25,197 bases of DNA from an uncultured Candidatus Saccharibacteria bacterium (GTDB taxonomy: Bacteria; Patescibacteriota; WWE3; UBA101185; UBA10185), in contig CAZTXE010000001.1 of assembly GCA_964617305.1 (NCBI GenBank), positions 1 to 25,197 of the forward strand, given 5' to 3'. Made by a program: the position numbers and the translations under genes. How positions within the stretch are numbered: position 1 is the stretch's first letter; every line of letters begins with the position of its first letter. The notes beneath the pieces were generated by a model. The model searched no databases, was not told the origin of the DNA, and was given only the letters and a program-made list of their open reading frames with translations. Shown here piece by piece: positions 1 through 25,197 of the stretch.

Positions 1-3000
1 TAGGAGTTTCATTTGCAGTGGTTGTTAGTGATTCTAATTTCATAACAGGACTCGTCGTCCCGATGCCGACGTTGCCGTCCCCATCAACAAACACATAATC
101 TTCCCCAGCTGAACCCTCCAAGTGAAACATATCCTCTGAAGCAGATTGCGTTATCTGTAGTAATGAGTCAGGTGTTGTTTCATTGATGCCGACGTTGCCG
201 TTTGTTGATTCAACCCTCATTCTTTCAGTCCAAGTCCTAGCACTTCCAATTGTTGTCGCTGGAGAAGTTTCTACAATAAATCCTGCTGCTCCAAATTTTT
301 GTTTTACAGCGGCATAATTACCGAAGGAATTATTGCTACTATCAGTATGACTGACAAGATATGGTCCTATGGTCGTGTTTCCTCCAAATGCCAATGATTG
401 GTCAGAGGCAAATTGGTTCGTAATCATTGAGTTTGTATTATTAAATACTGTCAATTTTTCAGCTGGCTCCGTCGTCCCGATGCCGACGTTTCCTGTGTCT
501 CTTTCTACCGTCAACCTAGTGTTAATTGTTGCTCCATTTCCAGATTTTAAATAAAAATTATTATCTCCTCCGTCAAGCATCATTCTAAAACCTCCAGAAT
601 TAGCATCACCAAAAGCTCCATTCGCCTCTGAGTTTGCTTCTGTTAAATCAAATATGGCATCATTTCCACTTAGTGTGTGTATCAATAAATTTGAATCTGC
701 CGCATTAGGACTATAAATATTTAACTTACTTAACGGACTCGTCGTCCCGATGCCGACGTTGCCCTGAATATACATTGGGCCTGCTGTTCCAGTATAATCA
801 TCAAGAAAATTATATCCTCTTGATTGAAATTCTAATGGTTGAGTATTGTAGGAGGTCATTGTTGTTTTTCCTCCAGCAGAAATACTCATATCAAAATTGT
901 TTGAATATGCATCAAGGAAATTACCTGACCCAGTTGTATAAAATTTATTTGCTTTTATACTGCCATCCACTTCTAACTTTTCCCCAGGACTCGTCGTCCC
1001 GATACCGACGTTGCCTCCTTCTAAAAGAGTTATACCTATGGCATTCCCTGCAATAAGCTGAAGTGCAGAACTTCCATATTTGCCTCCAATCACCATATCA
1101 AGATTTGAAGAACCAGTTACTAAACTATCTGTTGCTCTGGCTACTCCTATAAGACCCATTTCAGTGCTATCAGTATCTGAAAAAGAAATTGCACCTTCAA
1201 CACTTGCTTGTTCTTTTAATTCCAACATTCTGCTCGGACTCGTCGTCCCGATGCCGACGTTGCCGGCTGAGGTATCAACGTAGAGCTGATTCGTATTCAC
1301 TGCGAAGTCGCCAGTGGTGGAGAGATTTACGTTTACACCTGAGCCAGCGACTGGTTCCAGCGTCAATGCTCCTACCTGGGTCGTGATCTTAGGTGCGGCC
1401 GATGCATTTGCTCCAAAGGTCAGGGTAGGCACTGTTGCAGTGTCATCTGTGTCTATTTCAAAGGTATTGTTAGAGGTGCCGCTTGTAACGCTAGGTCCGA
1501 TTAAGCTATCAGCTGTCAATGAGCCAGCTACGGTGACATTGCCGGATTTATCCATGGTAAACTGAGAAGTTCCGTCGCCATCCTGGACAAGAAAGAGATT
1601 TAAATCCTTATACGCGGTCGCCCCTGCTGCGCCAGCAGTATGATTTGAATCCAGAGTCAAGCTAGTGGCAGAGCCGATCGCAGAGACTGTAAAAACCTCG
1701 CTTCCTATCTTTATGGCATCCCCTACTGCAAGCTCTGTGTCAAATGCAGTGGTTGCGCCTGTCACTGCAGCTTCATTGATGGTGACTGTGACTGTGCCTG
1801 TGAGGGCAGTAGTAAGGTTACCTTTTATGTGGACATTGGCTGCAGGGGCAGTGGTACCGATACCGACTCTACCAGTTCCCTGCATAATCCTCATTGCCTC
1901 AGAATTTCCTGGACTAAAGGCTATGTGTTCATTGCCTCCGTCGGACTTTATTTCATGATAAAGATGTCCGGCCTTATAAGGGACAATCTTAATAGCGCCT
2001 GCGCCAACACCTGAACTTACACGCAAACCATCACTTCCCACTATATCTAAATCTGTTGCAGGTGTGGTCGTGCCGATGCCGACGTTGCCATTCCCTTGAA
2101 TAGTCATTTTAACATTATCATCATCCACATCAACTTTTGTTGCAAAGTGAATATCTCCTGCGTCGTTATTATATCTATTTCCAATAAATACCTCTCCTGT
2201 TCCTGGATTTTCCCAAAGTGCCAATCCCTGCAAACCTGCATTTGCACCAACCCTCAAATAATCAGTTTCTCCATTTAACCAATTATACCTAATATCACTT
2301 ATTACATCTAACTTCGCCGCTGGACTAGTCGTCCCGATGCCGACTCGCGTGTTCTGCACCCCTCCCGTCCCATCGGCTTCTCCGTAGATCTTCATCACAG
2401 GAGTCGAGTCGAGTGAGAAGCTGTAGCTTTCCTCGGTCCCCGCTGCGGGTACGGAGGACACAGGCATGTTAATCATTGTCACCGCACCACTGTCCTCTGT
2501 CAATCCGATGGTCCCGATGTTCAGCGCGCCTCCAACTTCGATTTCGTTGTTGGTGTTTACTTTAAACATATTCACGACTCCCGTTCCCGCCGAGTCCACT
2601 CCAGCGAACCACGCATCGTTTGGTATTTGAATGTAGTCAGTGGTGTCTTCCACTAGTCGCATCATTTCTACCCCTCCCGAGATGAGGGAAAGCTGGTCAG
2701 TACCCGACGAGCCCATTCCAGTGTCATAGTCAGATAACACAGCAAAACCAGGATTTGTTGCAGTTGCGTATTCATCCAATATAACATTTCCACCAGTTCC
2801 TGATTCCACACGACCCGCTAAAATGTTAAATGTATTTGTGCCAGCTATTCCAAAACTTAAAACATCATCTGATGATTCGTATAAACCTGTATCTCCATCT
2901 CCGAAAGCTAACGATGGTGTCGCAACAGCTCCAATAACTCCCGCAGGACCAATAATTACTTGATCGGTTGTGGCGGTTCCTGTTTCCACGAGTCGAAGCA

Positions 3001-6000
3001 TTTCTTTCGCTCCGGCGATAAGGGAAAGCTGGTCGCCAGAGTTGGTCCCCATTCCTGTATCAGAGTCTGAACTATTTGGAACGACGCTCGGCGTGGTTGC
3101 TGATGGGGTAGACCGAATAAGTTTCGAACCAGTAACCGTTCCTATTCCGGTAGATGTTATGGTGAGGACATCCGTACCGGCTGCTGAAAAGTGAAGATTA
3201 TTATCGACACTTTCCCAAAATCCCGTATTACCATCTCCAAACGCTAAATTGGGTGCGGCAGCGGTTCCAGTGAGATCCGCTTGTGGATTAATGATGAATT
3301 GCTCGGTCGTTGCTTCAGAAGCTCGAGCGATTTCTTTCGCTCCGGCGATAATAGAAACTTGATCGGCGGCGTTTGCTCCGATTCCGGTATCTATATCATT
3401 ATTAGAAGGCATAAAGACAGGATTTGTTGCCGTTGGGTCTTCGTTTCTAATGACGGCTCTACCAGCTGAACCGGCTTCAAAGGAAGTTGATGTAAACAAG
3501 AACGGAGCCGTACCCGCAACTGCAATATTGAGTTGATCATCACTCGCTTCATAAAACCCGGTATCTCCATCTCCAAAAGCTAAAGTAGGAGCAGCAGAAT
3601 GGTCTCCAGGAGTTTCATTTAAACTTAACAAACCGAGTGGACTCGTCGTCCCGATTCCGACGTTTCCAGAACTGTCGATTCTCAATCTTTCGGTACCGTT
3701 TGTATAGAGAGCTGTTATTCCGTGTGTCCAGTTCGTATCATTCTTACTTGTTTGACCAATTTTGAAGAGTCCCGCAGCGGCTCCAGTTGTTCCTGGTGTA
3801 TAGCTCATATGAATAGCATTGTCGTGGGAGTAGTTTTTCGACAAAATCCATTGTTGTGTAGCGGCACCATCTCCATAAAGCCAGAGGGCATTATTGATAG
3901 CTTTTATTGTGTAGGGGTCTGTCGCGGCGGTACTTGCCAATTGGATGTCTCCGCCATCAACGTGCAATTTCGTTGCCGGACTCGACGTCCCGATCCCGAC
4001 GTTACCTGCAAAATAATTCGTGCCAGCCACAGAATAAATACCATAATTTGTAGTTCCTCCTGTTGCTGAGAAATAACCTGCTGTAACTGTATTATTTGTC
4101 TCACCTACCGCTACGTTATGTGATGCATAAACATTTCCGCCTGTTTGAGTTCCACCTGATGAATCTGCTCTTGCTTTTACTCCTATTAGTGTTCCATTAA
4201 AATCAGTAACAGCAGCACTCAGTTCTGCAAGAAAATAACCTGCGTTTTCTTCATTACCGCCATTACCACCTAATATAGATGATATTTTAGTATACCCAAA
4301 GACTCCTATATTTAATCTTCCTCCTGTGTTTACTCCTGATGCTCCAACTACTCCTATAGAACCATAAGGACTCAAAGAAGGAATTGCTATAGAAGATCCT
4401 TTTGCTATTCCAATAATTCCTGGAGGTGAATTTACTGTTGTAAAGAAATTATTACTTTTTGCAACTCCATTAACTGTAAAAGCCCCACCCTCTGAACCTA
4501 ATATTGTTCCTTTTGTATGTAGTTTTTGAGCAGGACTCGCCGTCCCTATTCCCACATTCCCCGTACTATCCTCCACAAATATCCCTGCTCCGCCGTCTTC
4601 ATACAGCTTCAACCCGTCGGCTCCTGTAGCCGTCACTTGCTTGGTGGTGATGTTGTCGGCGGCAATTTCGATGTTTCCGAGATTTGAAGTTCCGCTTACA
4701 GTTAGATCACCCGCAATAGTTGTGTTCCCTGAATTATCAATCACAAATTGATTGGTTCCATCTCCATCCTCTACAGCCAGTAAGTTAGGGTCAGTGTAAG
4801 CAGTGGCTCCAGTTGCTCCTGCTGAGTGAGCTGAATCAAGTGTTAAGCTCGTAGCACTTGCAATGGCTGAGATAGTGAATATTTCACTTCCTATTTTAAT
4901 TGAATCACCTACGGCTAGTTCTGTGTCAAATGCTGTAGTAGTTCCTGTTACGGTTGTAGATGCTGCTGTAACATCTACTGTACCTGTTAATGCTGTGGTT
5001 AAACTACCTTTTAGATGTAATTGTGCTGTTGGGGAGGTGGTGCCGATGCCGACGTTGCCACTTGTTGAAGCAAGTATTACATTCCCAACAGTTGTTTCTA
5101 TTGATCTGAAATCAGCAGCAGAAGTAAGGGTCGGATTAATATAAAGCCCCCTAGTGATTCCATTTGCTCCACCAGTCTGATTAACGGTTCCAGTATATGT
5201 ATAACCATTAAATACTCCAGTTCCTGAACTTGGTTGGAAATTTCTAGTATTTGTAAAAACATTCAATGTTCCACTGGTGAGTATCCCAGTTCCTGTAGCA
5301 CTAAAAGTAGAATTCGATGATACTACTGAAAAACTATTCGCAGCTGTAGCAGTTCCACCACTACTAACTTTAAAATAACTACTACCATTTAATTGCAAGT
5401 CCATCATATTCCCGCCAAATCCACTTGGAGCATTAACACCTAATCCTGTTCCAGCAGTAGACCAACCAGTAGAAGTTGCCCCAGATGGCTCAATAAGTAA
5501 ATATGGTTTGGTTGTTGTAGCATCTCCACCTGTTCTTATCCAAGTACCATCACCCTTTATCCCTGGTTGTGATAATGCTCCATTTATAGCCACATGTAAT
5601 CCTGCCACCGGACTCGTCGTCCCCACCCCGACATTCCCTTCAACTAACAAACCATTCGTAGGGGCTGTATTTGTTCCAGAGTAAGTGGCACCGATTACCG
5701 CACCCCCTTCAACATCGAGAGTGTTCGTCGGACTCACCGTCCCAATCCCCACATTCCCACTCTTATCAACAATAAACTTTCCAACAGAGTCTCCGTTATC
5801 AAGTTCAAATAAGTTAGGGTCAGTGTAAGCAGTGGCTCCAGTTGCTCCTGCTGAGTGAGCTGAATCAAGTGTTAAGCTCGTAGCACTTGCAATGGCTGAG
5901 ATAGTGAATATTTCACTTCCTATTTTAATTGAATCACCTACTGCTAGTTCTGTGTCAAATGCTGTAGTAGTTCCTGTTACTGTAGTAGATGCTGCTGTGA

Positions 6001-14818: not shown

Positions 14819-14945
14819 ACGGGTACGAATTTGGGGTTCCTTACTAATGCGAATTTTGCCTGAAAAAGCGGATATCTCCAAAGAAAAGACCCTAAAAGTA
14901 TGGATTTTACGTTGCAAAAAAATACATTTGTTTTGAAACACCATT

Positions 14946-14972
14946 CAACCCGGGTTCTAAGAACCCGGGTTG
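14946..14972. repeat. 27-bp REP-like double palindrome directly after the stop of the VIT-vWA-SLH gene
   Basis: caacccgggttc-taa-gaacccgggttg forms a perfect 12-bp stem, and each arm contains the self-palindrome aacccgggtt. No U-tract follows on the minus strand. Confidence 0.8.
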
Positions 14973-17432
14973 TTATTTTTTCATCATTTCAAATATTAAT
15001 TTCAACGCCTCAGCTCGTGTTAATTTTCCGTGCGGTCGAAATGTTCCATCTCCGTACCCGCGCACCATTCCACGATTTACAGCCTCGGAGACCCACGGCT
15101 TTTCCCATCCGATGACATCGGCGAAGATTGATTTCGAGTTCGAACTCTTAGAGTTCGAACTCGAAAAACCAGAAACCGACAACAGAATTTTCACTCCTTC
15201 CGCCCGCGTCAAACTCTGCAATGGTCGGAACGTTCCATCGGGATATCCCTTCACCACACCCGCTTTTGCTAATATTTGCACCGCATCGAAATACTCCGGA
15301 TCGTGCACATCTGTGAAGTTTGGATTCTGAGTTCGAACTCTTAGAGTTCGAACTCCTTCAAATGCCTTCACCACCATCTGTGCAAACTCCGCTCGATCAA
15401 TCGCACGATTCGGATGCAATTTCCCATTAATCTCCGGCTCTAATAATCCTTCTTCCACCGCTCTGACGATATATCCATGCGCCCAATGATTTGCATCATA
15501 ATCTTTAAAGAACGCTCTATCCGATGATTTCACTTCCTCCCGTTCGCCCTCCAAGACGGAGAGACACCGAAACTCTGTGCAGAAATTCACCTCCTCTGCC
15601 ATTCCAAATCCTTCCGCCACAAACTCGGGGAATTTCACAAAGAGTTCTTTTTGCGCTTCTGAAAACGGAGCGATTTTGATATGCGTTTCCGCTCTCACAA
15701 GTTCTGGAAAATTAAACTGTTGCCACACTCCTGTCATTCCGACCAACGCGGAGGAATCCCTTTTTTCAATTTCATACAAAGGCACTCCATTTAAAAATCT
15801 CATTTCTCCTTCAAGCGCATTCGAATCTAGTTTTAAAATTTCCCGAAGTAATTCGATTCGAGAAACGGAATTCAAATTGTCTTTCAATTCGACTCGCGTC
15901 GTTTCATTGTTAAAAAAACTCGTTGCAATTCCAAATGTACGACCGATTGCCAGCAGTGCATCCAAGTCTGAAGTTTGGCGCTCTTCTTTTTTTAAAATTT
16001 CCGCAATTTTTAGCCCCCCCCACCTCCGAGGTACGAAATGCCCCCCTGAGACGTTTTTGATTTCAGACGATCCAACTGTTCGCCCTACAAAGAAAAATGA
16101 ATCTGAGAGCATTTGTGAAAGAAAAAATTTCGGCACCACTTCTTTCATTTCCCATTTCTCGCTATGAACAAACATGTCCTCGACTCCGATCGAGGATCCA
16201 CTCAAGGAGTTTAGTTTTTTCAGAAATTCTTCTTTTTCTACTAAATTTGGACTCGATCGAAAAAGTTTCAACGGAAATCCTCCCGAAATTTTTGAAAAGA
16301 AGGCAAGATCGTTTTCCAAATCCTCTACAAATTGAAGAACCACATAACTTTCAGTAATTTCATTTTCTAGAAACACCGATGGATTCTCTCCCAAGGTTGT
16401 TTCATCAGTGATAAGAAATACCGCTCTGTATTGGGGATCGACCGTCCAACCATGCCCAACGCCCATGAGGGCTTTTGTAATATCAGTCTTCCCTACCGGC
16501 GCTACTCCCGATAAGAACCCAAAAAAGTCCTTTTTGAAATCAAATGTATTGCGTTGAAATTCTTCATCGTGCCAATTAATTCCGTCCGAGAAAAACCCAA
16601 TCCGGATTCGAACCTCCTCAGAAAAATTTTCGAGTAAAAACTCTGTCCAGTCCTTGGCTCTCTTCCAAGGCAATCCCCCAAGCGATCCTGATCTATCTAC
16701 GAGAATAGAAACTTCTTGGATATCTTTCTTTGGTGGTTTTACAAATTGCGCTCGGTATTCCATTCCTAAATACGGCACTCCTATTTCCGCATCGGGGAGA
16801 TTTGACCAAAGGAATTCTATTTGCGATTGAGGCATTCCGTTCCACAAAAAAGTCACCCCATCTGACGTATCAGTGAGTCCGTTTTTTCCAAGGGAATGAT
16901 AAAAATGCTCCACAGATTCCCCAAGCGAGAATGCAATCTCTGTATTTTCAAATGACGCACTGTCACTGAGAAAAACAGGAAGAATCGAAAAATCATCTTG
17001 ATGAGAAATTGGAACATTGAACACTTTTTTTGTTCTAACTTTCTGTCGCCCTCCTACGGCTATGTTTTCTGATCGAAAGAGCCTTGGGAACTGGCTCGTT
17101 CCCCACCCCAGCAGTGAGGCATCTTTGCGCTCCTGCGCTTGTGTAAAAAGATATACCAGTCGTTCTATTCCTTCCAAAGAAGAATACGCTCGTCCCTCCA
17201 TCCCTACGAAGAAATCCGAAATTTCCACCCCCTGCTCAAGGGGTTCTAATTCCTGAAAAACAATTTCTTTTTCTGAAGGATTGTAGAGCTCTGTAACGAT
17301 TTCTATACGAGCATTGTCCCCCTCTACATTAATGTGAACCTGTTTCTGGGTGACTTCAAGAATGCTCTCCGAAAAAAACGCAGACGTGCTGTTTGTTAAA
17401 AAAATCAAAAGGATCAGTTTCCACAGTTTCAT
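14973..17432 (-). CDS. Secreted VIT + von Willebrand factor A domain protein with three C-terminal S-layer homology (SLH) domains, 819 aa
   Basis: Signal peptide MKLWKLILLIFLTNSTSA; VIT-like VHINVEGDNARIEIVTELYNP; vWA ILVDRSGSL (DxSxS). SLH repeats are FKDYDANHWAHGYI..HPNRAIDRAEFAQM, FTDV..GVVKGYPDGTFRPLQSLTRAEG and FADV..GMVRGYGDGTFRPHGKLTRAEA. Confidence 0.9.
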   Translation of the reverse strand: MKLWKLILLIFLTNSTSAFFSESILEVTQKQVHINVEGDNARIEIVTELYNPSEKEIVFQELEPLEQGVEISDFFVGMEGRAYSSLEGIERLVYLFTQAQERKDASLLGWGTSQFPRLFRSENIAVGGRQKVRTKKVFNVPISHQDDFSILPVFLSDSASFENTEIAFSLGESVEHFYHSLGKNGLTDTSDGVTFLWNGMPQSQIEFLWSNLPDAEIGVPYLGMEYRAQFVKPPKKDIQEVSILVDRSGSLGGLPWKRAKDWTEFLLENFSEEVRIRIGFFSDGINWHDEEFQRNTFDFKKDFFGFLSGVAPVGKTDITKALMGVGHGWTVDPQYRAVFLITDETTLGENPSVFLENEITESYVVLQFVEDLENDLAFFSKISGGFPLKLFRSSPNLVEKEEFLKKLNSLSGSSIGVEDMFVHSEKWEMKEVVPKFFLSQMLSDSFFFVGRTVGSSEIKNVSGGHFVPRRWGGLKIAEILKKEERQTSDLDALLAIGRTFGIATSFFNNETTRVELKDNLNSVSRIELLREILKLDSNALEGEMRFLNGVPLYEIEKRDSSALVGMTGVWQQFNFPELVRAETHIKIAPFSEAQKELFVKFPEFVAEGFGMAEEVNFCTEFRCLSVLEGEREEVKSSDRAFFKDYDANHWAHGYIVRAVEEGLLEPEINGKLHPNRAIDRAEFAQMVVKAFEGVRTLRVRTQNPNFTDVHDPEYFDAVQILAKAGVVKGYPDGTFRPLQSLTRAEGVKILLSVSGFSSSNSKSSNSKSIFADVIGWEKPWVSEAVNRGMVRGYGDGTFRPHGKLTRAEALKLIFEMMKK
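15132..15166. repeat. In-frame palindromic element inside the CDS (27-bp core, 16-bp stem)
   Basis: tttc-gagttcgaactc-tta-gagttcgaactc-gaaa; encodes FSSSNSKSSNSK in the linker between SLH2 and SLH3. Confidence 0.85.
15329..15355. repeat. Second copy of the 27-bp coding palindromic element, read in a different frame
   Basis: gagttcgaactc-tta-gagttcgaactc is identical to 15136-15162 but encodes GVRTLRVRTQ in the linker between SLH1 and SLH2. Confidence 0.85.
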
Positions 17433-17441
17433 ACGAGAGTA

Positions 17442-17470
17442 ATTGTAAGGAGAAATCTAATTTCAAACAA
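17442..17470 (-). promoter_or_regulatory. Putative sigma70 promoter for the VIT-vWA-SLH gene (near-leaderless transcript)
   Basis: Minus strand TTGTTT-17 nt-TACAAT, followed by only 9 nt before the ATG at 17432. Confidence 0.4.
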
Positions 17471-17474
17471 CCCA

Positions 17475-17500
17475 TAGGCGCGGTCACGTGACCGCGCCTA
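17475..17500. repeat. Perfect 26-bp palindrome resembling a GTAG-family REP
   Basis: taggcgcggtcacgtgaccgcgccta is its own reverse complement. The minus strand reads GTAG-GCGCGGTCACGTGACCGCGC-CTAT. It lies 16 bp past the stop of the PKD gene. Confidence 0.75.
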
Positions 17501-17516
17501 CGAAAAGTTTTAATTG

Positions 17517-19859
17517 TTATTCTGATTCCCCTTCTACCGTAATCCGATCTTTAAATGATGCGACAACACCCTTGGCATCGGTAATCTTGAGAGAAACATC
17601 GAAGTCTCCTGCAAACTCATAGATATGTGTTGGCATGAAATCACGAGATACGTTTCCATCTCCAAAGGTCCAAAGATAGTTTGCAATAGACCCTGTTGAT
17701 TGCGTTGGATCGAATTGCACTTCGAGTCCGTTATCAACATTCGCAATCGCTTCAAAGCTCGCACTCAATGGAAGTGATCGAACGGAGATCAGTGTTTCTG
17801 TTTCCGCAATTTCCTGTTCTGATGTGAGCACCTTGAGTGTCACCGGAAATGATCCCGCACTATTGAATTCATACGAAAGCTTTGCGCCTGCTTGAATCGG
17901 TTCTTTCCCCGGAAAGGTCCATGTGTAGAGTACTATTTCTCCTTTGTCTGTTGTAGAACCAGAACCGTCAAACTCTACTGTCAGTGGAACCGTTCCAAAC
18001 CCAGGATCAGCATTGATACGAGCCTGAACTCCCGTCCGATCAACAATAACTCTCTTTATAGAGGTGAACTCATTTTCATAGGAATCAACAACCGTAAGTG
18101 CTAAATCATATTCTCCTGATTCTTTGTAAACATACGTTGTCTTTTCTTTGAAATCATCATACACACCGTCGTTCTCGAAATCCCATTTCCATTCAACTGG
18201 ATTATGAAGCGCTGATACATCCGCACGAAGCTCTACCTCAAGTGGAGAATTCCCTCTTAATATATCCTCTGTAGAAGCGGGATTGGTAATAATTATTGGT
18301 TTCGCTCCTTCCAATTGTGGCGTCACCGTAATTATCTGTTCTACTTTATCACGCTCTCCGACATCATTTTCGATGATGAGTGTCACCATATATTCTCCTG
18401 GTGCTCTGAACGTTCTTTCTAGTTTTCGTCCCACAACAATTTCTGTTTCTCCTTCAACTTGCCACTGATAGGAACTAATCGTTCCAAATCGTGTGTACGA
18501 TTGCTCTCCAGAAAGTTTCACCGAAAATGGAGGCACGCCCACAAAGCCTTTGTCAGAAACAATTTTTCCTTGAATATTTTCTGCTGATTCCTCAACAATA
18601 ATCAATTTTTTGAGAACCGCTGTATCATGATTTGTTCCTGTCACCCGAAGTGAGACTTCCACCTGTCCAACTTTTGAAAAGGTATGTTCAAAAGATGTTT
18701 TCTCATTCTCAATTATTTCAAATGAACCATCTCCATCCATGTCCCACTCATAAAGTATAATTTCACCATCTGGATCGTTTGATGCTCTTGCATTAAATTG
18801 CACCGTAAGGGGAACAGGGCCTTGTTCTTTGTCGACTGAGTACAGTGCTTGTACGGCTTCGTTCACAATAATAACTTGTTTTTCTGATGTATACGTCTTC
18901 TCCATTTGTGCGGAAGGAGAGTAATAATCGACCGAAACAAGCACCATGTATTTTCCGTTATTGTTTCCTTTTTTGAGGAACCGGTGTGCAACTTTTGGTC
19001 CTGTTGCATCAAATCTTCCATCGCTTTCAAAATCCCAATTAATTTGTCGTACGAGGTCTTCATCGATTTGTTTGAACAGTTCCGTCCCGACATCGAACTC
19101 CACCATCACTGGCGCATGAAGCCCAATAACTTTCTCTGGAACCGTTGCTATAATTGAGTTATTGATCTGTCGGTGCTCTGCATTGGCATTTGTAATAATC
19201 CAAAAGATTCCAACCCAAAGGACACAAACGACAACAAATATTCCGAAGAAGAATGCCGATTTTTTTCCATATTCTCCACGATTCACGGCTTCCTTTCCGA
19301 GCATTAACCATTGGAAAAATTTAATAAGAGTTCCAATCAGAAAAAAGATTGCTAAAAATCCAAAGATGTAATTCGTCAGATTTAACAATGTCGATTGGAG
19401 ATCTGTTTCTTGAATATTAAGCGCTTCGAATAAAGGATTTGAAACATCTCCTCCTAAAAGTCCCCACAAAAGGAGAACGTAAAAGATGGCGAGTAATATT
19501 CCTCCGAACGTTATGAACCATCGGAACAATGCCCATGCTCCCATTTTTCTTCCAGAAGCCATCTCTTCAATATCTTCCTTTTTTTCTGCTGGGGCAGCCT
19601 CTTCTGGTAATTCTTCTTCGTGAATACTTTCCTCCGCTGTAGGAGCCTCTGTCACTGGTGCAGCCTCCACAGGTGCTGGAGCTTCTGTTTGTTCAACAGG
19701 TGCTTCTGCAATTGGTACTTCCGCCACAGGAACTGCTGGAATAACCGGAGCCTCTTCTGTAGGCGCGGTTGATTCAATCTCTGGAAGAGAAGTATTTGGT
19801 GCCGGAGTTCCCTCTGTATCTAAAGAAGGATCTGTATTTGGGTTTGTGTTTTCGTCCAT
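17517..19859 (-). CDS. Membrane protein with an acidic Pro/Ala/Glu-rich N-tail, three transmembrane helices and ~5 extracellular PKD domains, 780 aa
   Basis: ORF track. Three hydrophobic segments lie around aa 108-222. PKD motifs include PLTVQFNARASNDPDGEIILYEWDMDGDG, PLTVEFDGSGSTTDKGEIVLYTWTF and VQFDPTQSTGSIANYLWTFGDG. Confidence 0.88.
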   Translation of the reverse strand: MDENTNPNTDPSLDTEGTPAPNTSLPEIESTAPTEEAPVIPAVPVAEVPIAEAPVEQTEAPAPVEAAPVTEAPTAEESIHEEELPEEAAPAEKKEDIEEMASGRKMGAWALFRWFITFGGILLAIFYVLLLWGLLGGDVSNPLFEALNIQETDLQSTLLNLTNYIFGFLAIFFLIGTLIKFFQWLMLGKEAVNRGEYGKKSAFFFGIFVVVCVLWVGIFWIITNANAEHRQINNSIIATVPEKVIGLHAPVMVEFDVGTELFKQIDEDLVRQINWDFESDGRFDATGPKVAHRFLKKGNNNGKYMVLVSVDYYSPSAQMEKTYTSEKQVIIVNEAVQALYSVDKEQGPVPLTVQFNARASNDPDGEIILYEWDMDGDGSFEIIENEKTSFEHTFSKVGQVEVSLRVTGTNHDTAVLKKLIIVEESAENIQGKIVSDKGFVGVPPFSVKLSGEQSYTRFGTISSYQWQVEGETEIVVGRKLERTFRAPGEYMVTLIIENDVGERDKVEQIITVTPQLEGAKPIIITNPASTEDILRGNSPLEVELRADVSALHNPVEWKWDFENDGVYDDFKEKTTYVYKESGEYDLALTVVDSYENEFTSIKRVIVDRTGVQARINADPGFGTVPLTVEFDGSGSTTDKGEIVLYTWTFPGKEPIQAGAKLSYEFNSAGSFPVTLKVLTSEQEIAETETLISVRSLPLSASFEAIANVDNGLEVQFDPTQSTGSIANYLWTFGDGNVSRDFMPTHIYEFAGDFDVSLKITDAKGVVASFKDRITVEGESE

Positions 19860-19889
19860 ATTTTTAAAAAAACGGATTTTCTACCTCTA

Positions 19890-19919
19890 ATAATGACGGA
19901 AGAAGGCACTCCTTGTCAA
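19890..19919 (-). promoter_or_regulatory. Putative sigma70 promoter for the 780-aa PKD gene
   Basis: Minus strand TTGACA (perfect -35)-18 nt-CATTAT, about 30 nt upstream of the ATG at 19859. Confidence 0.5.
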
Positions 19920-19937
19920 AGTTTTCATAAACGAATT

Positions 19938-22337
19938 CTATCGAACAGAAATCATTCGCTGACTCTCCGAAGAAACAATATGGAGCCCATCAGAAACTTT
20001 TACTCCCACTGCGTACGTTCCCACTTCTTCAAATGGATAAAGAAGAAATGACTCTGCTACCTCTCTCGAAAATAAAACGATTCCCCCTTGAGAAACGATC
20101 CATTTATACGTGAGGATATCGTTCTCTGTATCTTGTGCGATAACATCAAAACGAACCAATTCCCCTTTCATCACCCCTGTTTCGCTCACGGTGAAGTCTG
20201 CAATCACAGGCGGTTCATTCCTGCTCTGATTATTATTTTCAAATACAAAGGCTTCCGTTCCTTGTGAAATCGTCCTTCCTCCATCACTATCAGTAGCGGT
20301 CACTCGAAAGGAAATCTCACGAACTCCGTTCCGGTATTGTGAAAAATCAAAATAGGCTTGTCCCATATCGAGTAATTGCGTATCGGGAAGGACTTCTCCG
20401 TTTTCTATTGGTTCGAAAAAATACTGGCTAATCGGCGTATCTGTATCGGTATCTTCCGCATATGCCGTAACCAAGAAATCCACAGGACCTGTTGGAAGTA
20501 TCATATCTCCCTGATTTATTTTGTAGGAAATTGGTTCCTTAAATTCGGGATTTTTATTTTCCACCTCTATTAAAAGAGATGTCTGATCACTTTGATTTTG
20601 ATCCCCTGGTGTATAGACCGTCAATTGAACGGGATATATTTCCGCATTACTGAAGTGTTTATTCAAAAGAAGTCCCACATCACATTCTGTAGAAACCGGA
20701 ACTCCTCTCACTGACCAACTATAATTAAGATTCGCGTTCTCACATCCAATAGCTCCCATTCCATCAACTGCTGAAGCTCTGATAAGAACATTCGTATTCC
20801 CTCTTTCATTTCTTGCAATAGAAACCATTGCAGATGCATTTTCCCACGAGTCCCCTTTGTCTATTGAGTATTGAAGCAATGCCATGGGCATATCTTTCGA
20901 ACGAACAGCAACTGATTTTGTTATTGAGGTAGTCTCTTCATTGAGTGTCCCCGTCAATGTGACTGAATGAATCCCCGTGCTGTGAAAAGAAATATTCTTA
21001 TCAGAGGTATCTTCCACATCCCCTATTAAACTCTCTTCCTTGTCGGCCTCCCACACATATTCCACTCCTTCCTGACTTTGTGCATGAAATAAAAATGATT
21101 CATCTTCAACCAGTACGTAGGGCACTTCAAAGTCGACCCAAAGCGTGCTGACATCAGAAATGCTCTCGGTAACAATCTCAGAAACATATTCTTGTTTCCC
21201 CTCTTTGTATTCCACACGGAGGCGTACTGTTTTTTCTCCTGATTGGGTGTATTCGTATTGAACAATGGGGTCAGTCGTTTTTTCATCCCACTCCCCATCT
21301 CCATCAAAATCCCATTCATAGGAAATGCCTTTTGTCTCTCCTAAAACATTCACACTCCCGCTCGCATCAAATTCATATTCAGCTGGATGATGAAGTTTTT
21401 CCGTTGATTGTATCGAGACAATTTTAGCGATAGGTTTCTCTCCCGAGACGGAGAATATTCTTTTTTCTGTTTCACTTATTCCAATATTATTCGTTGTTGT
21501 TAGAGCAACTTCATAGATCCCTGGCTCTGTAAACTGCAACGCTCCTTGTTGCCCCATTTGATTGCTAAAGACGCACTGTGAAGCCTGTGTCTCCGCACAA
21601 GACCATTTGTAGTTTGTGATCGATCCAACAACGCTCATCGAGTCACTTCCATCAAGCGTTACCAATTCGTTCACACGAGGAGTGAAGTCTTCAACAACAA
21701 ACATTGGGATAACACCCCCAACAATAATTTTGGTTTTCGTTATATATATCGTTCCATTTGCTTCTGCTAAGAAGATTACATTGTAACTTCCCTTTTCTCC
21801 ATAGGCATGTTTCACTTGTTTCCCTGTCGCTGTTGTTCCATCTCCAAAACGCCAATCTCCCATTTTTCCATCACTACTAAAGGTGACTCCATTCATTGCA
21901 CGAACAGAATTCACCATAATTCCGTCCGAGAAGGATGCTCCTCCCTCAACACTAATAGGCGCCTTATTTAAGACCACCTGCTTCTTTGGTTGCCGTCTTT
22001 TATCGGGCACATAATCTTGCACGTTATCAACCGCAGAATCCCCAACTCCAACAGAAGGGTATCGCGTAACATGTACAGGATCTGGTTGCGTTGGTATTGA
22101 TCCTGCGTCTTCCGCTTGCTGCAATATTTCTTTTAATTCGTCATCAAGAATAACGTTCTCTTCTGGCGTTGTTACTGATGAAACGGCTTCTTTATCATAC
22201 TGTTCTGTCACTGTTGTTGGATTCTTTTTCACATTCTGAACAAGTTGAGGAAATTTCTTTACCACAAAAACACCTCCCAGCGTTACAACAACTCCAAGGG
22301 TGACTGACACCAAAAGAAGAATAGTATTTTTTTTCAT
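19938..22337 (-). CDS. N-terminally anchored PKD/Ig-like repeat surface protein, 799 aa
   Basis: ORF track. One N-terminal hydrophobic helix (ILLLVSVTLGVVVTLGGVFVV). PKD motifs include WRFGDGTTATGKQVKHAYGEKGSYNV, VTLDGSDS..ITNYKWS and YEWDFDGDGEWD..VQYEYTQSGEKTVRLRV. Confidence 0.88.
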   Translation of the reverse strand: MKKNTILLLVSVTLGVVVTLGGVFVVKKFPQLVQNVKKNPTTVTEQYDKEAVSSVTTPEENVILDDELKEILQQAEDAGSIPTQPDPVHVTRYPSVGVGDSAVDNVQDYVPDKRRQPKKQVVLNKAPISVEGGASFSDGIMVNSVRAMNGVTFSSDGKMGDWRFGDGTTATGKQVKHAYGEKGSYNVIFLAEANGTIYITKTKIIVGGVIPMFVVEDFTPRVNELVTLDGSDSMSVVGSITNYKWSCAETQASQCVFSNQMGQQGALQFTEPGIYEVALTTTNNIGISETEKRIFSVSGEKPIAKIVSIQSTEKLHHPAEYEFDASGSVNVLGETKGISYEWDFDGDGEWDEKTTDPIVQYEYTQSGEKTVRLRVEYKEGKQEYVSEIVTESISDVSTLWVDFEVPYVLVEDESFLFHAQSQEGVEYVWEADKEESLIGDVEDTSDKNISFHSTGIHSVTLTGTLNEETTSITKSVAVRSKDMPMALLQYSIDKGDSWENASAMVSIARNERGNTNVLIRASAVDGMGAIGCENANLNYSWSVRGVPVSTECDVGLLLNKHFSNAEIYPVQLTVYTPGDQNQSDQTSLLIEVENKNPEFKEPISYKINQGDMILPTGPVDFLVTAYAEDTDTDTPISQYFFEPIENGEVLPDTQLLDMGQAYFDFSQYRNGVREISFRVTATDSDGGRTISQGTEAFVFENNNQSRNEPPVIADFTVSETGVMKGELVRFDVIAQDTENDILTYKWIVSQGGIVLFSREVAESFLLYPFEEVGTYAVGVKVSDGLHIVSSESQRMISVR

Positions 22338-22351
22338 TGAATGAATGTATT

Positions 22352-22882
22352 TTAAAACCCTCCGCCTCCATTGAGACCTGATCGTTCTCTATGGATCTGG
22401 TCAAGTTCTCCTGGCAGTGCTCTGTTTCCCGCAGGGGCTTCTGTTTGCTGATTTCCATCTCGATCATCGGTTCCCGCAGGGGCATGCACAATAAGTGTAT
22501 TTACCAGTGCGTACGACACCAATACAACCAATATTCCTATCGCGGCAAAGATCACTATCTTTTTCGCTTTTTCGTGCTGACCATCGTCTCCTCCAGCCGT
22601 AACATAAAGAAATCCTGCATAAATCAGAAATGCCACTGCAAGAAGTCCGAGGAAAGAAAGTGCAAAATTAAGCACTCCCACTAAATATACACGTGCTGAT
22701 GTATTGGCTCCAATTCCATCTATTCCAAAATCTGCTGCATCGGGTAATTCAAATTCTCCACTTGGAACTGCTCCTCCAAAATTAAAAATGTCATTGATTT
22801 CGTCCCCTATCCCTCCATACGCCTCTGGGACTAAGAGAGTAAGTGCAAAGAATGCCATGAAAACGAGAAGTATTTTTTTCAT
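22352..22882 (-). CDS. VirB2/TrbC-like (T4SS_pilin-type) pilin, 176 aa
   Basis: Core VLNFALSFLGLLAVAFLIYAGFLYVTAGGDDGQHEKAKKIVIFAAIGILVVLVSYALVN is the two-helix pilin pattern; signal-like N-terminus; ATGA overlap with the upstream pilin. Confidence 0.85.
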   Translation of the reverse strand: MKKILLVFMAFFALTLLVPEAYGGIGDEINDIFNFGGAVPSGEFELPDAADFGIDGIGANTSARVYLVGVLNFALSFLGLLAVAFLIYAGFLYVTAGGDDGQHEKAKKIVIFAAIGILVVLVSYALVNTLIVHAPAGTDDRDGNQQTEAPAGNRALPGELDQIHRERSGLNGGGGF

Positions 22883-23406
22883 AAGAAAGAATGTAAAGAT
22901 GAGATAAGAATAGCCTGTTCAGGACCAAATCGAGCCTGCATGATTGTGTTTACAATGGCATAGGAACCAAAGATAAGAAGAATTCCTATGGCCACCCACA
23001 TAACCACTTTTTTTGCTTTTTCGGTTTGCCCATCATCTCCACCAGCCGTGACATATAAGAATCCTGCAAACACAATCGCTAAGACCGCAATGACAGCGGT
23101 AACCGAAAGGAAAAACTTCATCCATCCGACAAGCAGTCGGTTCATATTTTTTACTTTTGAAACGCCATTATCGAGCCGGCATTTCGCAAGTTTTGCTCCT
23201 TTTTTTATTCCTGGTCCATCAAAAATTGGTTTTTCTTGATCTCCAAAACTTATATCAATATCGATAACATCCCCCAAAAGACATTCTGCATCATCTAATA
23301 CGTCTTCTACATTATCTACGAAACTCGCAAATACCCCTTGAGAATGATAAGAAACACCTCCCCAAAACAGAAGTGCAACGAGAAAGGCAAAACATATTTT
23401 TTTCAT
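22879..23406 (-). CDS. VirB2/TrbC-like (T4SS_pilin-type) pilin, 175 aa (start moved from 23496 to MKKICFAFL at 23406)
   Basis: Core FFLSVTAVIAVLAIVFAGFLYVTAGGDDGQTEKAKKVVMWVAIGILLIFGSYAIVN. The internal Met gives a signal peptide matching its paralogue (MKKI..) and removes the overlap with purL. Confidence 0.85.
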   Translation of the reverse strand: MKKICFAFLVALLFWGGVSYHSQGVFASFVDNVEDVLDDAECLLGDVIDIDISFGDQEKPIFDGPGIKKGAKLAKCRLDNGVSKVKNMNRLLVGWMKFFLSVTAVIAVLAIVFAGFLYVTAGGDDGQTEKAKKVVMWVAIGILLIFGSYAIVNTIMQARFGPEQAILISSLHSFL

Positions 23407-24833: not shown

Positions 24834-24966
24834 GTCATCCCGGAATTCCAGAGGAATGTCCGGGATCTAGCCATGAGTTATTATCTTTTACCAAAAAACC
24901 CCTCGCAATGCGGGGGGTTTTTATCATTTCTGAGGTTATGAGATCCCGAAACAAGTTCGGGATAAC
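24834..24966. repeat. Inverted pair of REP-like hairpins (GTCATCCCG..CGGGATCT / AGATCCCG..CGGGATAAC) flanking the tuf terminator
   Basis: Left unit gtcatcccggaattccagaggaatgtccgggatct (24834-24868); right unit gagatcccgaaacaagttcgggataac (24940-24966). Each forms a hairpin, and the two are inverted relative to each other. Confidence 0.7.
24893..24922 (-). terminator. Rho-independent terminator of tuf (potentially bidirectional)
   Basis: Minus strand AAAAA-CCCCCCGC-ATT-GCGAGGGG-TTTTTT, about 80 bp after the tuf stop. Confidence 0.8.
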
Positions 24967-25003: not shown

Positions 25004-25197
25004 TTACTTCAAAATCTTTGTTACCACTCCAGCACCAACAGTTCGTCCTCCTTCTCGGATCGCAAACCGTGTACCGTCGTTAAGCGCGATAGCCGCTCCA
25101 AGAACAACTTTGAATTTAGCGTTGTCCCCAGGCATAACCATCTCAACTCCGTCTGGAAGAATAACTTCTCCTGTAACGTCTGTTGTTCGGATGAAGA
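25004..25197 (-). CDS. tuf: Elongation factor Tu, C-terminal fragment (5' part beyond the right edge)
   Basis: Hand translation gives [63 protein letters not shown]; TAA at 25004-25006. Confidence 0.97.

What the first reader, a model, noticed from the sequence alone, without database searches (positions are those of the whole stretch)
1..23406. Candidate host-attachment apparatus: VirB2-like pilins, two PKD membrane proteins, VIT-vWA-SLH and a giant variable fibre
Six consecutive co-oriented genes all encode surface proteins. The two pilins overlap by ATGA, and the second pilin is 14 bp from the first PKD gene, suggesting an operon. No VirB4, VirB11 or relaxase gene is in the window, so this is not a canonical conjugation locus. 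CPR bacteria are episymbionts and are known to carry many VirB2-like pilins. Inference: a pilin/PKD membrane platform and a wall anchor display a recombinationally diversified fibre that sets host range.
Basis: inference. Interest (0 to 1): 0.68.

Follow-up and report, generated by a model that had tools for sequence, protein, structure and literature searches.

The report
Pilin-PKD surface module beside giant fibre
A marine Peribacteria (CPR) genome carries a conserved gene block for a membrane-anchored, Ig-domain-rich surface structure with a wall-bound integrin-like adhesin. Beside it lies a giant, phage-tail-fibre-like protein that is not a fixed part of the block.

Summary
Six co-oriented minus-strand genes encode two T4SS_pilin/VirB2-like hairpin proteins, two PKD membrane proteins, a VIT-vWA(MIDAS)-3xSLH wall protein and a tail-fibre-like ORF of at least 4,939 aa. 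The ATGA overlap and the 14-nt gap are real. No T4SS gene lies in the window or in the 9 kb of upstream flank recovered.

A block of purL-half, pilin1, pilin2, PKD1, PKD2 and VIT-vWA-SLH keeps its order in six Peribacteria/Gracilibacteria lineages, down to about 40% identity. In three of them pilin2 and PKD1 are one protein. Among the 150 best relatives of pilin2 in 1.8 billion protein clusters, 51 are N-terminal pilin hairpin plus PKD array fusions. So pilin2 and PKD1 here are the split form of a common, apparently undescribed architecture.

The giant fibre resembles Bdellovibrio MAT fibres and phage tail fibres. It is not a conserved partner. Sister lineages carry unrelated LamG giants on the opposite strand, toxin-antitoxin pairs or a DGR cassette in that slot. 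A hairpin and a 154-nt gap precede it. It was identical across four metagenomes.

A role in host attachment is plausible but inferred. I rate it a new variant of a known kind, with moderate interest.

The parts
23483..24538 (-). Stand-alone C-terminal half of PurL (AIRS + AIRS_C, 351 aa). It is the conserved first gene of the block.
   Evidence: NCBIfam PurL 1e-70, aligned to model positions 389-722 of 723. PDB 3viu 4e-54. It lies directly upstream of pilin1 in the window, L006, L026, L016, L019 and P0005's contig, although the genes further upstream differ.
22879..23406 (-). Pilin1: signal peptide, about 65-aa extension with two conserved Cys, then a VirB2-like two-helix hairpin (175 aa).
   Evidence: PF18895 2e-8 and PF04956 4e-8, both above cutoff. 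TM segments at 99-117 and 134-152. Orthologues are 49-70% identical.
22352..22882 (-). Pilin2: signal peptide, hairpin (helices 63-95 and 100-133) and a Gly/Pro-rich tail. It overlaps pilin1 by ATGA.
   Evidence: PF18895 2e-7. The AF2 model shows the hairpin at pLDDT about 83. It is 52% identical to pilin1 over the 77-aa hairpin only. It is fused to PKD1 in L016, L019 and L026.
19938..22337 (-). PKD1: N-terminal TM anchor, linker and a PKD/Ig-like array (799 aa). It starts 14 nt after pilin2 and is the fastest-evolving member.
   Evidence: PKD_4 1e-32 and PKD 4e-26. TM at 8-26. Identity to orthologues is 54, 45, 34 and 32%. It is collinear with residues 232-871 of the L016 fusion.
19890..19919 (-). 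Promoter-like site (TTGACA-18-CATTAT) in the 78-nt gap between PKD1 and PKD2.
   Evidence: Matches 10 of 12 consensus positions, the best in the region. This is a consensus match only.
17517..19859 (-). PKD2: about 100-aa acidic Pro/Ala/Glu-rich N-terminus, three TM helices and five or more PKD domains (780 aa).
   Evidence: PKD_4 8e-59. TM at 116-134, 164-182 and 204-222. The membrane domain has 76% mean column identity across four lineages. TM2-loop-TM3 aligns in register with the pilin hairpin, hhalign probability 35%.
17471..17504 (-). 15-bp GC-rich hairpin between PKD2 and the SLH-protein gene.
   Evidence: The T-tract is weak (TTGTTTG).
14973..17432 (-). VIT-vWA(MIDAS)-middle domain-3xSLH wall protein (819 aa). 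VIT is about 16743-17357, vWA about 16203-16715, MIDAS DRSGS at 16683-16697 and SLH about 14976-15500.
   Evidence: SLH 2e-30. The family profile hits ITIH4 at 3e-11, ITIH1 at 1e-7 and Sap SLH at 3e-17. The AF2 model matches ITIH1 6fpy by Foldseek at 3e-23. D246, S248, S250 and the TRAE motif are invariant.
14946..14972 (.). Perfect 12-bp palindromic hairpin immediately after the SLH-gene stop. The T-run is good on the plus strand and weak on the minus strand.
   Evidence: L011 has a different hairpin plus a T-tract at the same place.
2..14818 (-). Giant mosaic tail-fibre/MAT-like protein, at least 4,939 aa in the window and at least 5,832 aa in another assembly. It has a signal peptide (MTYKNPFVLTIKGLILGMGLLYVSTGFA) and is truncated at the contig end.
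   Evidence: phrog_9942 1e-86 and phrog_18345 4e-79. PDB Bd2133 8ond 1.5e-7 and 8ojn 1.4e-4. The start is inferred from the in-frame stop in L011.
47..14434 (-). At least 32 copies of the junction motif G-N-V-G-I-G-T-T-S-P, irregularly spaced (40-665 aa apart) and conserved as DNA (AAC GTC GGN ATC GGG ACG ACG AGT CC).
   Evidence: Rare codons are fixed in 17-22 of 25 strict copies, binomial P 2e-7 to 5e-13 per position.
11825..12292 (-). Laminin_G_3 (ConA-like lectin) domain inserted in the fibre.
   Evidence: PF13385 5e-14, ORF residues 885-1040.
4761..6089 (-). Internal duplication: 300-nt copies at 4761-5060 and 5790-6089, 91% identical. They belong to a module of about 110 aa that recurs five times.
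   Evidence: family D2. (58-85% aa identity among five copies).

Best explanation
The locus holds two separable things.

**1. A conserved, chromosomal six-gene block specific to Peribacteria.** The order is purL-half, pilin1, pilin2, PKD1, PKD2, VIT-vWA-SLH.

I propose that it builds an envelope-spanning surface structure:
- VirB2-type helical hairpins (pilin1, pilin2 and perhaps TM2-TM3 of PKD2) sit in the cytoplasmic membrane, with both ends outside.
- These hairpins form the base.
- Long PKD/Ig-like arrays, attached to the base covalently (the fused form) or by adjacency (the split form here), form stalks through the wall zone.
- An ITIH/integrin-like VIT-vWA head with an intact MIDAS site is tethered to the wall polymer by three SLH repeats.

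The fast-evolving parts are the PKD1 ectodomain and the VIT-vWA head. They are the likely contact surfaces. The slow parts are the hairpin cores, PKD2 and the SLH repeats. They are the likely scaffold.

**2. A variable slot downstream of the block.** In this lineage it holds a giant, mosaic, Sec-exported adhesin related to phage tail fibres and Bdellovibrio MAT fibres. It probably has its own transcript.

**What is shown:** domain identities, membrane topology by hydrophobicity, conserved synteny, the gene fusions, the commonness of the fusion architecture, and the non-conservation of the fibre.

**What is inferred:** physical assembly of the parts, independence from a VirB4 machine, and a role in adhesion to a host cell.
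For: - Domain calls.
- Synteny: the full block is present in the window, in L006/L007/L012 (SLH protein about 59-64% identical), in L026 (57-64%), in P0005's contig (53%), and in L016 and L019 (39-41%).
- Fusions: one ORF carries T4SS_pilin plus PKD in L016 (889 aa), L019 (1,228 aa) and L026 (836 aa). The L016 fusion is collinear with pilin2 (65% identity) and PKD1 (31% over 677 aa).
- Breadth of the family: the pilin2-family profile has 51,980 hits. Of the best 150, 51 are N-terminal hairpin plus PKD fusions. All 9 sampled were confirmed by Pfam.
- Independent pilin/PKD gene rows occur in other Patescibacteria, L021 and L027.
- A T4SS_pilin gene sits next to the vWA-SLH gene even where the PKD genes are absent (L009/L014 and L018).
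- Evolutionary rates differ among the members.
- No T4SS gene lies within the flanks of any locus examined.
- Precedents for such parts acting in bacterium-bacterium contact: MAT fibres (PMC10769870) and the MIDAS adhesin Bd0875 (PMC11003981) in Bdellovibrio, and essential pilins in Southlakia (PMC10633639).
Against: - No expression, localisation or interaction data exist. No RNA run holds the locus.
- The rest of the genome is unseen, so a VirB4 system that uses these pilins cannot be excluded.
- In three lineages (L013, L015, L008/L017) the vWA-SLH gene has no pilin gene within the flanks.
- Fold search of the pilin model is uninformative. The T-pilus structure 8exh ranks only 44th, at E 8.7.
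- The block sits near housekeeping genes and was invariant across four metagenomes. That fits a constitutive envelope scaffold as well as it fits a host-specific adhesin.
- The likeness of the PKD2 hairpin to pilins is weak: hhalign probability 35%, and it is not found by Pfam or by my own HMM.
Confidence: 0.5

Rival explanations
1. The two pilins are ordinary subunits of a T4SS pilus assembled by a VirB4-type machine encoded elsewhere in the genome. The PKD and vWA proteins are accessory adhesins of that pilus or mating channel.
For: - The Pfam T4SS_pilin and TrbC matches are above cutoff.
- Most Patescibacteria carry a T4SS. In Gracilibacteria its components are scattered rather than clustered (PMC12102498).
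- In Southlakia the pilins inside the T4SS cluster are essential (PMC10633639).
Against: - No T4SS gene lies in the window, in the 9 kb upstream, or within 10 kb in the related loci.
- The closest relatives are mostly fused to 500-2,300-aa PKD arrays, or are polyproteins of up to 8 tandem hairpins. Both are hard to fit into a thin VirB2 helical filament.
Confidence: 0.25
2. The block is a constitutive cell-envelope scaffold, for example S-layer or wall organisation of an ultrasmall monoderm. It has no specific role in host recognition, and the fibre alone is the host adhesin.
For: - It sits in a housekeeping neighbourhood: tuf, ahpC, trxB.
- PKD2, the hairpins and the SLH part are strongly conserved.
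- SLH repeats are classic wall anchors.
- No sequence variation was seen across four metagenomes.
Against: - The PKD1 ectodomain and the VIT-vWA head diverge much faster than the anchors.
- An intact MIDAS site points to ligand binding.
- vWA/MIDAS proteins recur as adhesins (PMC11003981).
Confidence: 0.15
3. All six genes form one operon-encoded machine in which the pilin/PKD platform and the SLH protein hold and display the giant fibre.
For: - All six genes are co-oriented here and in the 78% relative L011.
- A large LamG-bearing surface protein lies next to the block in six lineages.
- The fibre has a cleavable signal peptide and no anchor of its own, so it needs a docking partner.
- MAT fibres are thought to dock by their N-terminal domain on an unknown surface element (PMC10769870).
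Against: - The neighbouring giants are not homologous to this fibre, and they lie on the opposite strand in L006, L007, L012 and L026; L019 carries a smaller Laminin_G_3 protein there.
- The slot also holds toxin-antitoxin pairs and a DGR cassette.
- A hairpin and a gap of about 154 nt precede the fibre gene.
Confidence: 0.1
4. The fibre gene, or the whole region, is a prophage or phage-derived remnant.
For: - Strong hits to PHROG tail-fibre families.
- Fibre modules are shared with viral contigs L024 and L025.
Against: - There are no capsid, terminase, portal, integrase or tRNA genes.
- The flanks are chromosomal housekeeping genes.
- At 4,939 aa or more, the ORF is far beyond the roughly 1,000-aa length of the solved MAT fibre proteins it matches.
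Confidence: 0.03

Closest known systems
VirB2-like (T4SS_pilin, PF18895) pilin arrays of Patescibacteria (Microb Genom 2025, PMC12102498; essential pilins of Southlakia, PMC10633639)
   Same: - Tandem, divergent pilin paralogues: 52% identity in the hairpin and none outside it.
- Signal peptide plus a two-helix hairpin.
- CPR host genome, with no relaxase.
   Different: - Not next to virB4.
- The array is embedded in a fixed block with PKD membrane proteins and a VIT-vWA-SLH protein.
- The second pilin is the split form of a pilin::PKD fusion. That architecture is not mentioned in the paper; 'PKD' occurs 0 times in it.
Bdellovibrio MAT (mosaic adhesive trimer) fibres and phage tail fibres (Nat Microbiol 2024, PMC10769870; PDB 8ond, 8ojn, 8oml)
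   Same: - Sequence similarity in the repeated fibre segments carrying the GNVGIGT-type motif.
- Mosaic module structure.
- Secreted surface fibre in a bacterium that lives on other bacteria.
- Lectin-type domain insertions.
   Different: - Five or more times longer: at least 4,939-5,832 aa against about 1,000.
- The C-terminal tip, and so the S74 versus non-S74 class, is unknown.
- The host is a monoderm-like CPR bacterium.
- Trimerisation is untested.
Inter-alpha-trypsin-inhibitor heavy chains and other VIT-vWA proteins (PDB 6fpy, 9c4f); MIDAS adhesins such as Bd0875 (PMC11003981)
   Same: - VIT followed by vWA with an intact DxSxS MIDAS motif.
- Integrin-like fold match over 441 columns.
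   Different: - Anchored to the wall by three SLH repeats.
- An extra domain of about 230 aa with conserved Cys.
- Sequence identity is only about 12%.
Pam pili of CPR bacteria (bioRxiv 2026, 10.64898/2026.03.03.709456)
   Same: - CPR-specific surface appendage built from Ig-like domains, with membrane-anchored components.
- No trans-envelope motor.
- A tail-fibre-like gene is consistently nearby.
   Different: - Pam pilins polymerise by donor-strand exchange with PapD-like chaperones, and none is found here.
- The only hit is PamR at 19 bits against a cutoff of 300.
- Pam is found in Saccharimonadia and Microgenomatia, not Peribacteria.

Membership tests
T4SS pilin (VirB2/TrbC; Pfam PF18895, PF04956) | Profile match above the curated cutoff | tested here: met
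   Pilin1 scores 34.5 bits (cutoff 26.6) and 33.8 bits (cutoff 27.9). Pilin2 scores 31.3 bits (cutoff 26.6).
T4SS pilin (VirB2/TrbC; Pfam PF18895, PF04956) | Signal peptide, then two hydrophobic helices joined by a short charged loop | tested here: met
   Sequences, hydropathy and the AF2 hairpin at 63-95 and 100-133.
T4SS pilin (VirB2/TrbC; Pfam PF18895, PF04956) | Encoded with, or dependent on, VirB4/VirB6-type assembly genes | tested here: not met
   None in the window, in the 9 kb upstream (L001), or in the flanks of about 12 related loci. The rest of the genome is unseen.
T4SS pilin (VirB2/TrbC; Pfam PF18895, PF04956) | Fold match to a solved conjugative pilin | tested here: inconclusive
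   Foldseek places 8exh (T-pilus) at rank 44, E 8.7. The profile search against PDB gave only spurious hits.
T4SS pilin (VirB2/TrbC; Pfam PF18895, PF04956) | Polymerises into an extracellular filament | not testable with these tools
   This needs microscopy or biochemistry. The fusions and polyproteins among relatives argue against a canonical filament.
Patescibacterial VirB2-like pilin array | Two or more adjacent, divergent pilin genes in a CPR genome | tested here: met
   Two genes overlap by ATGA and are 52% identical over 77 aa. The taxon is established.
MAT / phage tail-fibre family | Sequence homology to fibre shaft repeats | tested here: met
   PDB 8ond 1.5e-7 and 8ojn 1.4e-4. phrog_9942 1e-86 and phrog_18345 4e-79.
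MAT / phage tail-fibre family | C-terminal adhesive tip, with or without an S74 chaperone | not testable with these tools
   The C-terminus lies beyond the contig end. The attempt to extend it found only a paralogous gene.
MAT / phage tail-fibre family | Homotrimeric fibre | not tested
   No multimer prediction was available.
VIT-vWA (ITIH-like) MIDAS proteins | VIT domain followed by a vWA fold | tested here: met
   Profile hits to ITIH1 and ITIH4. Foldseek matches 6fpy at E 3e-23. Pfam VIT and VWA are present on homologues P0003, P0004 and P0008.
VIT-vWA (ITIH-like) MIDAS proteins | Intact DxSxS metal-ion site | tested here: met
   D246, S248 and S250 are invariant in 12 sequences.
SLH-anchored wall proteins | Three SLH repeats with a TRAE-type motif | tested here: met
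   PF00395 has 3 stretches at 2e-30. T742, R743, A744 and E745 are invariant. Sap SLH matches at 3e-17.
Pam pilus system (CPR) | PamA/B-type Ig pilins, PapD-like chaperones PamC/D, and PamR | tested here: not met
   The only NCBIfam hit is PamR at 19.3 bits against a cutoff of 300.
DGR-diversified adhesin | Reverse transcriptase, Avd and a TR/VR pair nearby | tested here: not met
   None in the window. RT plus bAvd are present only in the relative L016.

The most novel reading that the evidence does not exclude
In CPR bacteria the 'T4SS_pilin' hairpin may not be primarily a conjugative-pilus subunit. It may instead be a modular membrane base, possibly self-assembling, for a previously unrecognised surface organelle.
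- Hairpin-anchored PKD stalks occur fused, split or as poly-hairpin proteins.
- In Peribacteria they pair with a wall-bound integrin-like MIDAS head.
- The structure would be built without any VirB4 machine.

A second unexcluded element concerns the fibre. Its 26-nt junction motif, fixed at the DNA level, could be an in-frame recombination site that lets fibre genes swap modules.
Probability: 0.25. Interest if true: 0.8.

Novelty: new variant of a known kind. Interest (0 to 1): 0.55.

Why it matters
How ultrasmall CPR episymbionts hold on to their hosts is largely unknown outside Saccharibacteria. No Peribacteria has been cultured.

- **A testable unit.** This locus gives a concrete, conserved set of genes to test: pilin hairpins, PKD stalks and an SLH-tethered MIDAS head.
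- **A reinterpretation of a large family.** A family counted so far as 'VirB2-like pilins' has about 52,000 representative clusters matching the profile. It includes many pilin::PKD fusions and poly-hairpin proteins. This cautions against reading every such gene as a T4SS pilus subunit.
- **A wider reach for one adhesin design.** The neighbouring fibre extends the Bdellovibrio MAT and phage tail-fibre design to CPR bacteria, at a size above 5,000 aa.
- **A distinction for comparative genomics.** The analysis separates a conserved core from a variable adhesin slot, which is useful for comparing host range across genomes.

Tried and rejected
- **Alternative genetic code (25 or 4).** Not needed. 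Code 11 gives clean long ORFs.
- **Tandem repeats.** Tandem Repeats Finder found none.
- **Non-coding RNAs.** No Rfam family and no tRNA.
- **Expression.** RNA-seq runs hold 0% of the locus words, so co-transcription could not be tested.
- **Extending the fibre past the contig end by an exact-match scan.** This returned L023, a different fibre locus that shares only 78 nt (97%) with the window. The fibre C-terminus was therefore not recovered.
- **'Joints' between motif copies in Logan contigs.** I rejected these as evidence of recombination. They are short k-mer graph links at the repeated motif.
- **PKD2 membrane domain as a pilin.** Not found by Pfam or by my own HMM. hhalign gives only 35% probability. 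I keep it as an idea, not a result.
- **Fold and profile searches of the pilin against PDB.** Uninformative or spurious; the hits were designed 'Pizza' proteins.
- **Pam pilus membership.** Rejected.
- **Prophage reading.** Rejected because there are no phage core genes.
- **Exact look-up of the window's SLH protein.** It found no record.
- **Pilin relatives in viral contigs.** None found.


Full report
**1. What is in the window**

The window is a complete 25,197-bp metagenomic contig (ENA ERZ23491197, scaffold_2071), shown as its reverse complement. The same locus occurs in at least ten assemblies of marine metagenomes. Standard code 11 gives clean long ORFs, all on the minus strand.

In transcription order the features are:
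- the 3' end of tuf (25004-25197);
- a bidirectional terminator-like hairpin (24894-24922);
- a stand-alone C-terminal half of PurL (23483-24538);
- pilin1 (22879-23406);
- pilin2 (22352-22882);
- PKD1 (19938-22337);
- PKD2 (17517-19859);
- a VIT-vWA-SLH protein (14973-17432);
- a giant ORF that runs off the contig (2-14818 or 2-14944).

**2. Checking the domain calls**

*Pilins.*
- Both pilins pass the Pfam T4SS_pilin cutoff, and pilin1 also passes TrbC/VirB2.
- Each has a signal peptide and two hydrophobic helices joined by the loop GGDDGQxEKAKK.
- The AF2 model of pilin2 is a helical hairpin.
- Fold and profile searches against PDB gave nothing useful for so small a fold.

*PKD proteins.*
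- PKD1 has one N-terminal TM helix. PKD2 has an acidic, proline-rich N-terminus and three TM helices.
- Both carry PKD arrays.

*Wall protein.*
- The window protein alone shows only SLH strongly.
- Its 12-member family has an invariant DxSxS MIDAS motif and TRAE motifs.
- The family profile hits ITIH4, ITIH1 and Sap SLH.
- The AF2 model (pLDDT 80-90 in VIT and vWA) matches ITIH1 at E 3e-23 over 441 columns.
- VIT-vWA-SLH is therefore correct.

*Giant ORF.*
- It matches tail-fibre PHROGs (1e-86 and 4e-79) and three solved Bdellovibrio MAT fibre fragments.
- It carries one Laminin_G_3 domain.

**3. Taxon and wider context**

All genomic relatives of the SLH protein are Candidatus Peribacteria, Gracilibacteria or Altimarinota MAGs. 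The CPR assignment is therefore right. The 9 kb upstream is housekeeping: tuf, ahpC, mscS, trxB, a racemase and comM. No T4SS, phage or integrase gene is present anywhere in the window.

**4. Synteny: a conserved six-gene block**

The N-terminal 640 aa of the SLH protein have only 13 homologues in 5.8 billion sequences. Their contexts are as follows.

| Lineage | SLH protein identity | Arrangement |
|---|---|---|
| L006, L007, L012 | about 59-64% | same order, purL-half to SLH |
| L026 | 57-64% | same order |
| P0005's contig | 53% | same order |
| L016, L019 | 39-41% | same order |
| L009/L014, L018 | more distant | a T4SS_pilin gene divergently adjacent to the vWA-SLH gene; no PKD genes |
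| L013, L015, L008/L017 | more distant | no pilin gene within the flanks |

The genes upstream of the purL-half differ between lineages: tuf, CitMHS and others. The block is therefore the conserved unit, not the wider neighbourhood.

**5. The key new result: pilin2 and PKD1 are halves of one common protein**

- In L016 (889 aa), L019 (1,228 aa) and L026 (836 aa) a single ORF carries T4SS_pilin followed by PKD domains.
- The L016 protein is collinear with pilin2 (65% identity) and PKD1 (31% over 677 aa). It lacks only PKD1's own TM helix and linker.
- A profile of the pilin2 family against 1.84 billion representative proteins finds 51,980 hits at E<=1e-3.
- The best 150 break down as: 51 N-terminal hairpin plus PKD fusions of 500-2,333 aa, 59 polyproteins with 2-8 tandem hairpins, 29 stand-alone proteins of 300 aa or fewer, and 11 others.
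- Nine of nine long hits tested were PF18895 plus PKD by Pfam.
- Rows of pilin, pilin::PKD and PKD-protein genes also occur in other Patescibacteria, L021 and L027.
- The VirB2 topology puts both termini outside the membrane, so the fused PKD arrays are extracellular. This is consistent with PKD1's N-in/C-out anchor in the split form.

I found no paper that links T4SS_pilin with PKD. The survey of VirB2-like arrays in Patescibacteria does not mention PKD.

**6. PKD2**

Its membrane domain is the best-conserved part of the protein across lineages. TM2, the basic loop and TM3 have the same topology as a pilin hairpin and align with it in register. The support is only hhalign probability 35%, and Pfam and my own HMM miss it. 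This remains an idea only.

**7. Which parts evolve fast**

Against L006, L026, L016 and L019:
- PKD1 falls to 54, 45, 34 and 32% identity.
- PKD2 stays at 69, 75, 50 and 51%.
- Within the SLH protein, compared with L016, VIT is 30% and vWA 34% identical, while the middle domain is 48% and the SLH repeats 57%.

This pattern fits a conserved base and anchor with variable distal heads.

**8. The fibre is a separate, lineage-specific neighbour**

Only the 78% relative L011 has an orthologous, co-oriented fibre. Elsewhere the slot holds:
- in L006, L007 and L012, a giant on the opposite strand with no GNVGIGT motif and no phmmer similarity (Laminin_G_3 plus Gly_rich_2);
- in L026, an opposite-strand LamG protein;
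- in P0005's contig, a ParE/PhD pair and several smaller LamG proteins;
- in L019, AbiEi/AbiEii inserted inside the block and an opposite-strand 4x Laminin_G_3 protein;
- in L016, a reverse transcriptase plus bAvd (a DGR cassette), GIY-YIG ORFs and REP-like repeats.

In the window a perfect 12-bp hairpin follows the SLH stop. Its good T-run is on the opposite strand, as expected for a relic of a convergent arrangement.

The real fibre start is most likely the ATG at 14818 (MTYKNPFVL..., a signal peptide). The L011 orthologue has an in-frame stop upstream and its own hairpin plus T-tract. Co-transcription therefore cannot be assumed.

A large lectin-bearing surface protein next to the block recurs, but it is not the same protein each time.

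**9. Is the fibre 'variable' and 'recombinationally diversified'?**

In favour:
- It is mosaic. A module of about 110 aa recurs five times at 58-85% identity in different contexts, and one 300-nt stretch is duplicated at 91%.
- At least 32 copies of the junction motif GNVGIGTTSP occur at irregular spacing.
- The motif is conserved as DNA. AAC, GTC, ATC, GGG, ACG, ACG and AGT are each used in 17-22 of 25 copies, although their gene-wide synonymous share is only 0.14-0.29. The per-position P values are 2e-7 to 5e-13. The two flanking glycine codons and the proline codon vary freely.
- The paralogous fibre genes of L023 use the same DNA version of the motif.
- This gives about 26 nt of in-frame identity at many sites, a plausible substrate for module exchange.

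Against:
- No exchange was observed. The long contig pieces from four metagenomes of different studies match the window with 0-1 differences.
- The 'joints' between motif copies are k-mer graph artefacts.
- The contig ends of nearly all assemblies fall in such a repeat.

**10. Mechanism proposed**

Shown:
- the parts and their topology;
- their conserved linkage;
- the fusion of pilin2 with PKD1;
- the separateness of the fibre.

Inferred:
- The hairpins form a membrane base.
- PKD arrays form stalks reaching through the wall zone.
- The SLH-tethered VIT-vWA head binds a ligand through its MIDAS site.
- The structure acts in contact with another cell.
- The giant fibre is an independently exported long-range adhesin, which may or may not dock on the module.

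Precedents for each part acting in bacterium-bacterium contact are:
- MAT fibres and the MIDAS adhesin Bd0875 in Bdellovibrio;
- essential T4SS-cluster pilins in Southlakia;
- Ig-domain Pam pili with a neighbouring tail-fibre-like gene in other CPR bacteria.

The locus is not a Pam system.

**11. Verdict**

The pilin, PKD and VIT-vWA-SLH genes form a real conserved module, but the fibre is a variable neighbour and not a fixed component.
- No function has been demonstrated.
- Novelty: a new variant of a known kind (CPR VirB2-like pilin arrays), with an apparently undescribed pilin::PKD architecture.
- Interest is moderate (0.55).

Noticed in passing
window 23483-24538 (-): A stand-alone gene encodes only the C-terminal half of PurL (model positions 389-722 of 723). 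It is conserved at 58-83% identity directly upstream of pilin1 in every lineage with the full block, in organisms expected to lack purine synthesis. Its role is unknown.
   Followed up: partly
window 47-14434 (-), at least 32 sites; also L023: The fibre junction motif is fixed at the DNA level (AAC GTC GGN ATC GGG ACG ACG AGT CC) using codons that are rare elsewhere in the gene. The neighbouring Gly and Pro codons vary freely. Paralogous fibre genes in L023 share the same DNA version.
   Followed up: partly
P0046 and 58 others among the top 150 hits: There are polyproteins made of 2-8 tandem T4SS_pilin hairpins with short linkers. P0046, for example, has six hairpins in 552 aa. This implies 12-16-TM membrane proteins built from 'pilin' units.
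   Followed up: partly
L016 12600-17175: Downstream of the block in a Gracilibacteria MAG lie a reverse transcriptase with bAvd (a DGR cassette), two GIY-YIG-like ORFs, many REP-like palindromic repeats, and a 115-aa ORF with a GNVGIGT motif and a Cys-rich tail. No TR/VR pair was identified.
   Followed up: partly
L019 8350-9638; P0005's contig: Toxin-antitoxin pairs sit in or beside the block. AbiEi/AbiEii lie between PKD2 and the SLH gene in L019. ParE/PhD lie just downstream of the block in P0005's contig.
   Followed up: no
L023 1-13309: This separate contig carries three tandem large genes. The first is a fibre of 948+ aa with a Cys-rich tip. The second is a 2,380-aa fibre ending in a coiled coil. 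The third is a LamG protein of 1,064+ aa. The contig shares only 78 nt (97%) with window 1-78, which explains why assemblies break there.
   Followed up: partly
window 14946-14972: The perfect palindrome after the SLH stop has its strong T-run on the plus strand, where no gene ends. It looks like a relic of the convergent gene arrangement seen in sister lineages.
   Followed up: partly
L022 8363-15758: An array of five T4SS_pilin genes is followed by an M48 (HtpX-like) peptidase, an aldolase and a Big_1/invasin-like Ig protein. No VirB4 lies within 10 kb.
   Followed up: no
L021 1-2895; L018 8904-9926 (-): Two proteins carry the T4SS_pilin hairpin at the C-terminus, behind large N-terminal regions of at least 870 aa and about 260 aa. 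This is the mirror image of the pilin::PKD fusions.
   Followed up: partly
window 15130-15162 and 15323-15355: A 33-nt direct repeat (94% identical) lies within the SLH region of the wall-protein gene; its coding content was not examined.
   Followed up: no
window 17517-19859 (-), residues 1-100: PKD2 starts with about 100 aa of acidic Pro/Ala/Glu/Val-rich low-complexity sequence. By the positive-inside rule it is predicted to be cytoplasmic. It is present but poorly conserved in all orthologues.
   Followed up: no
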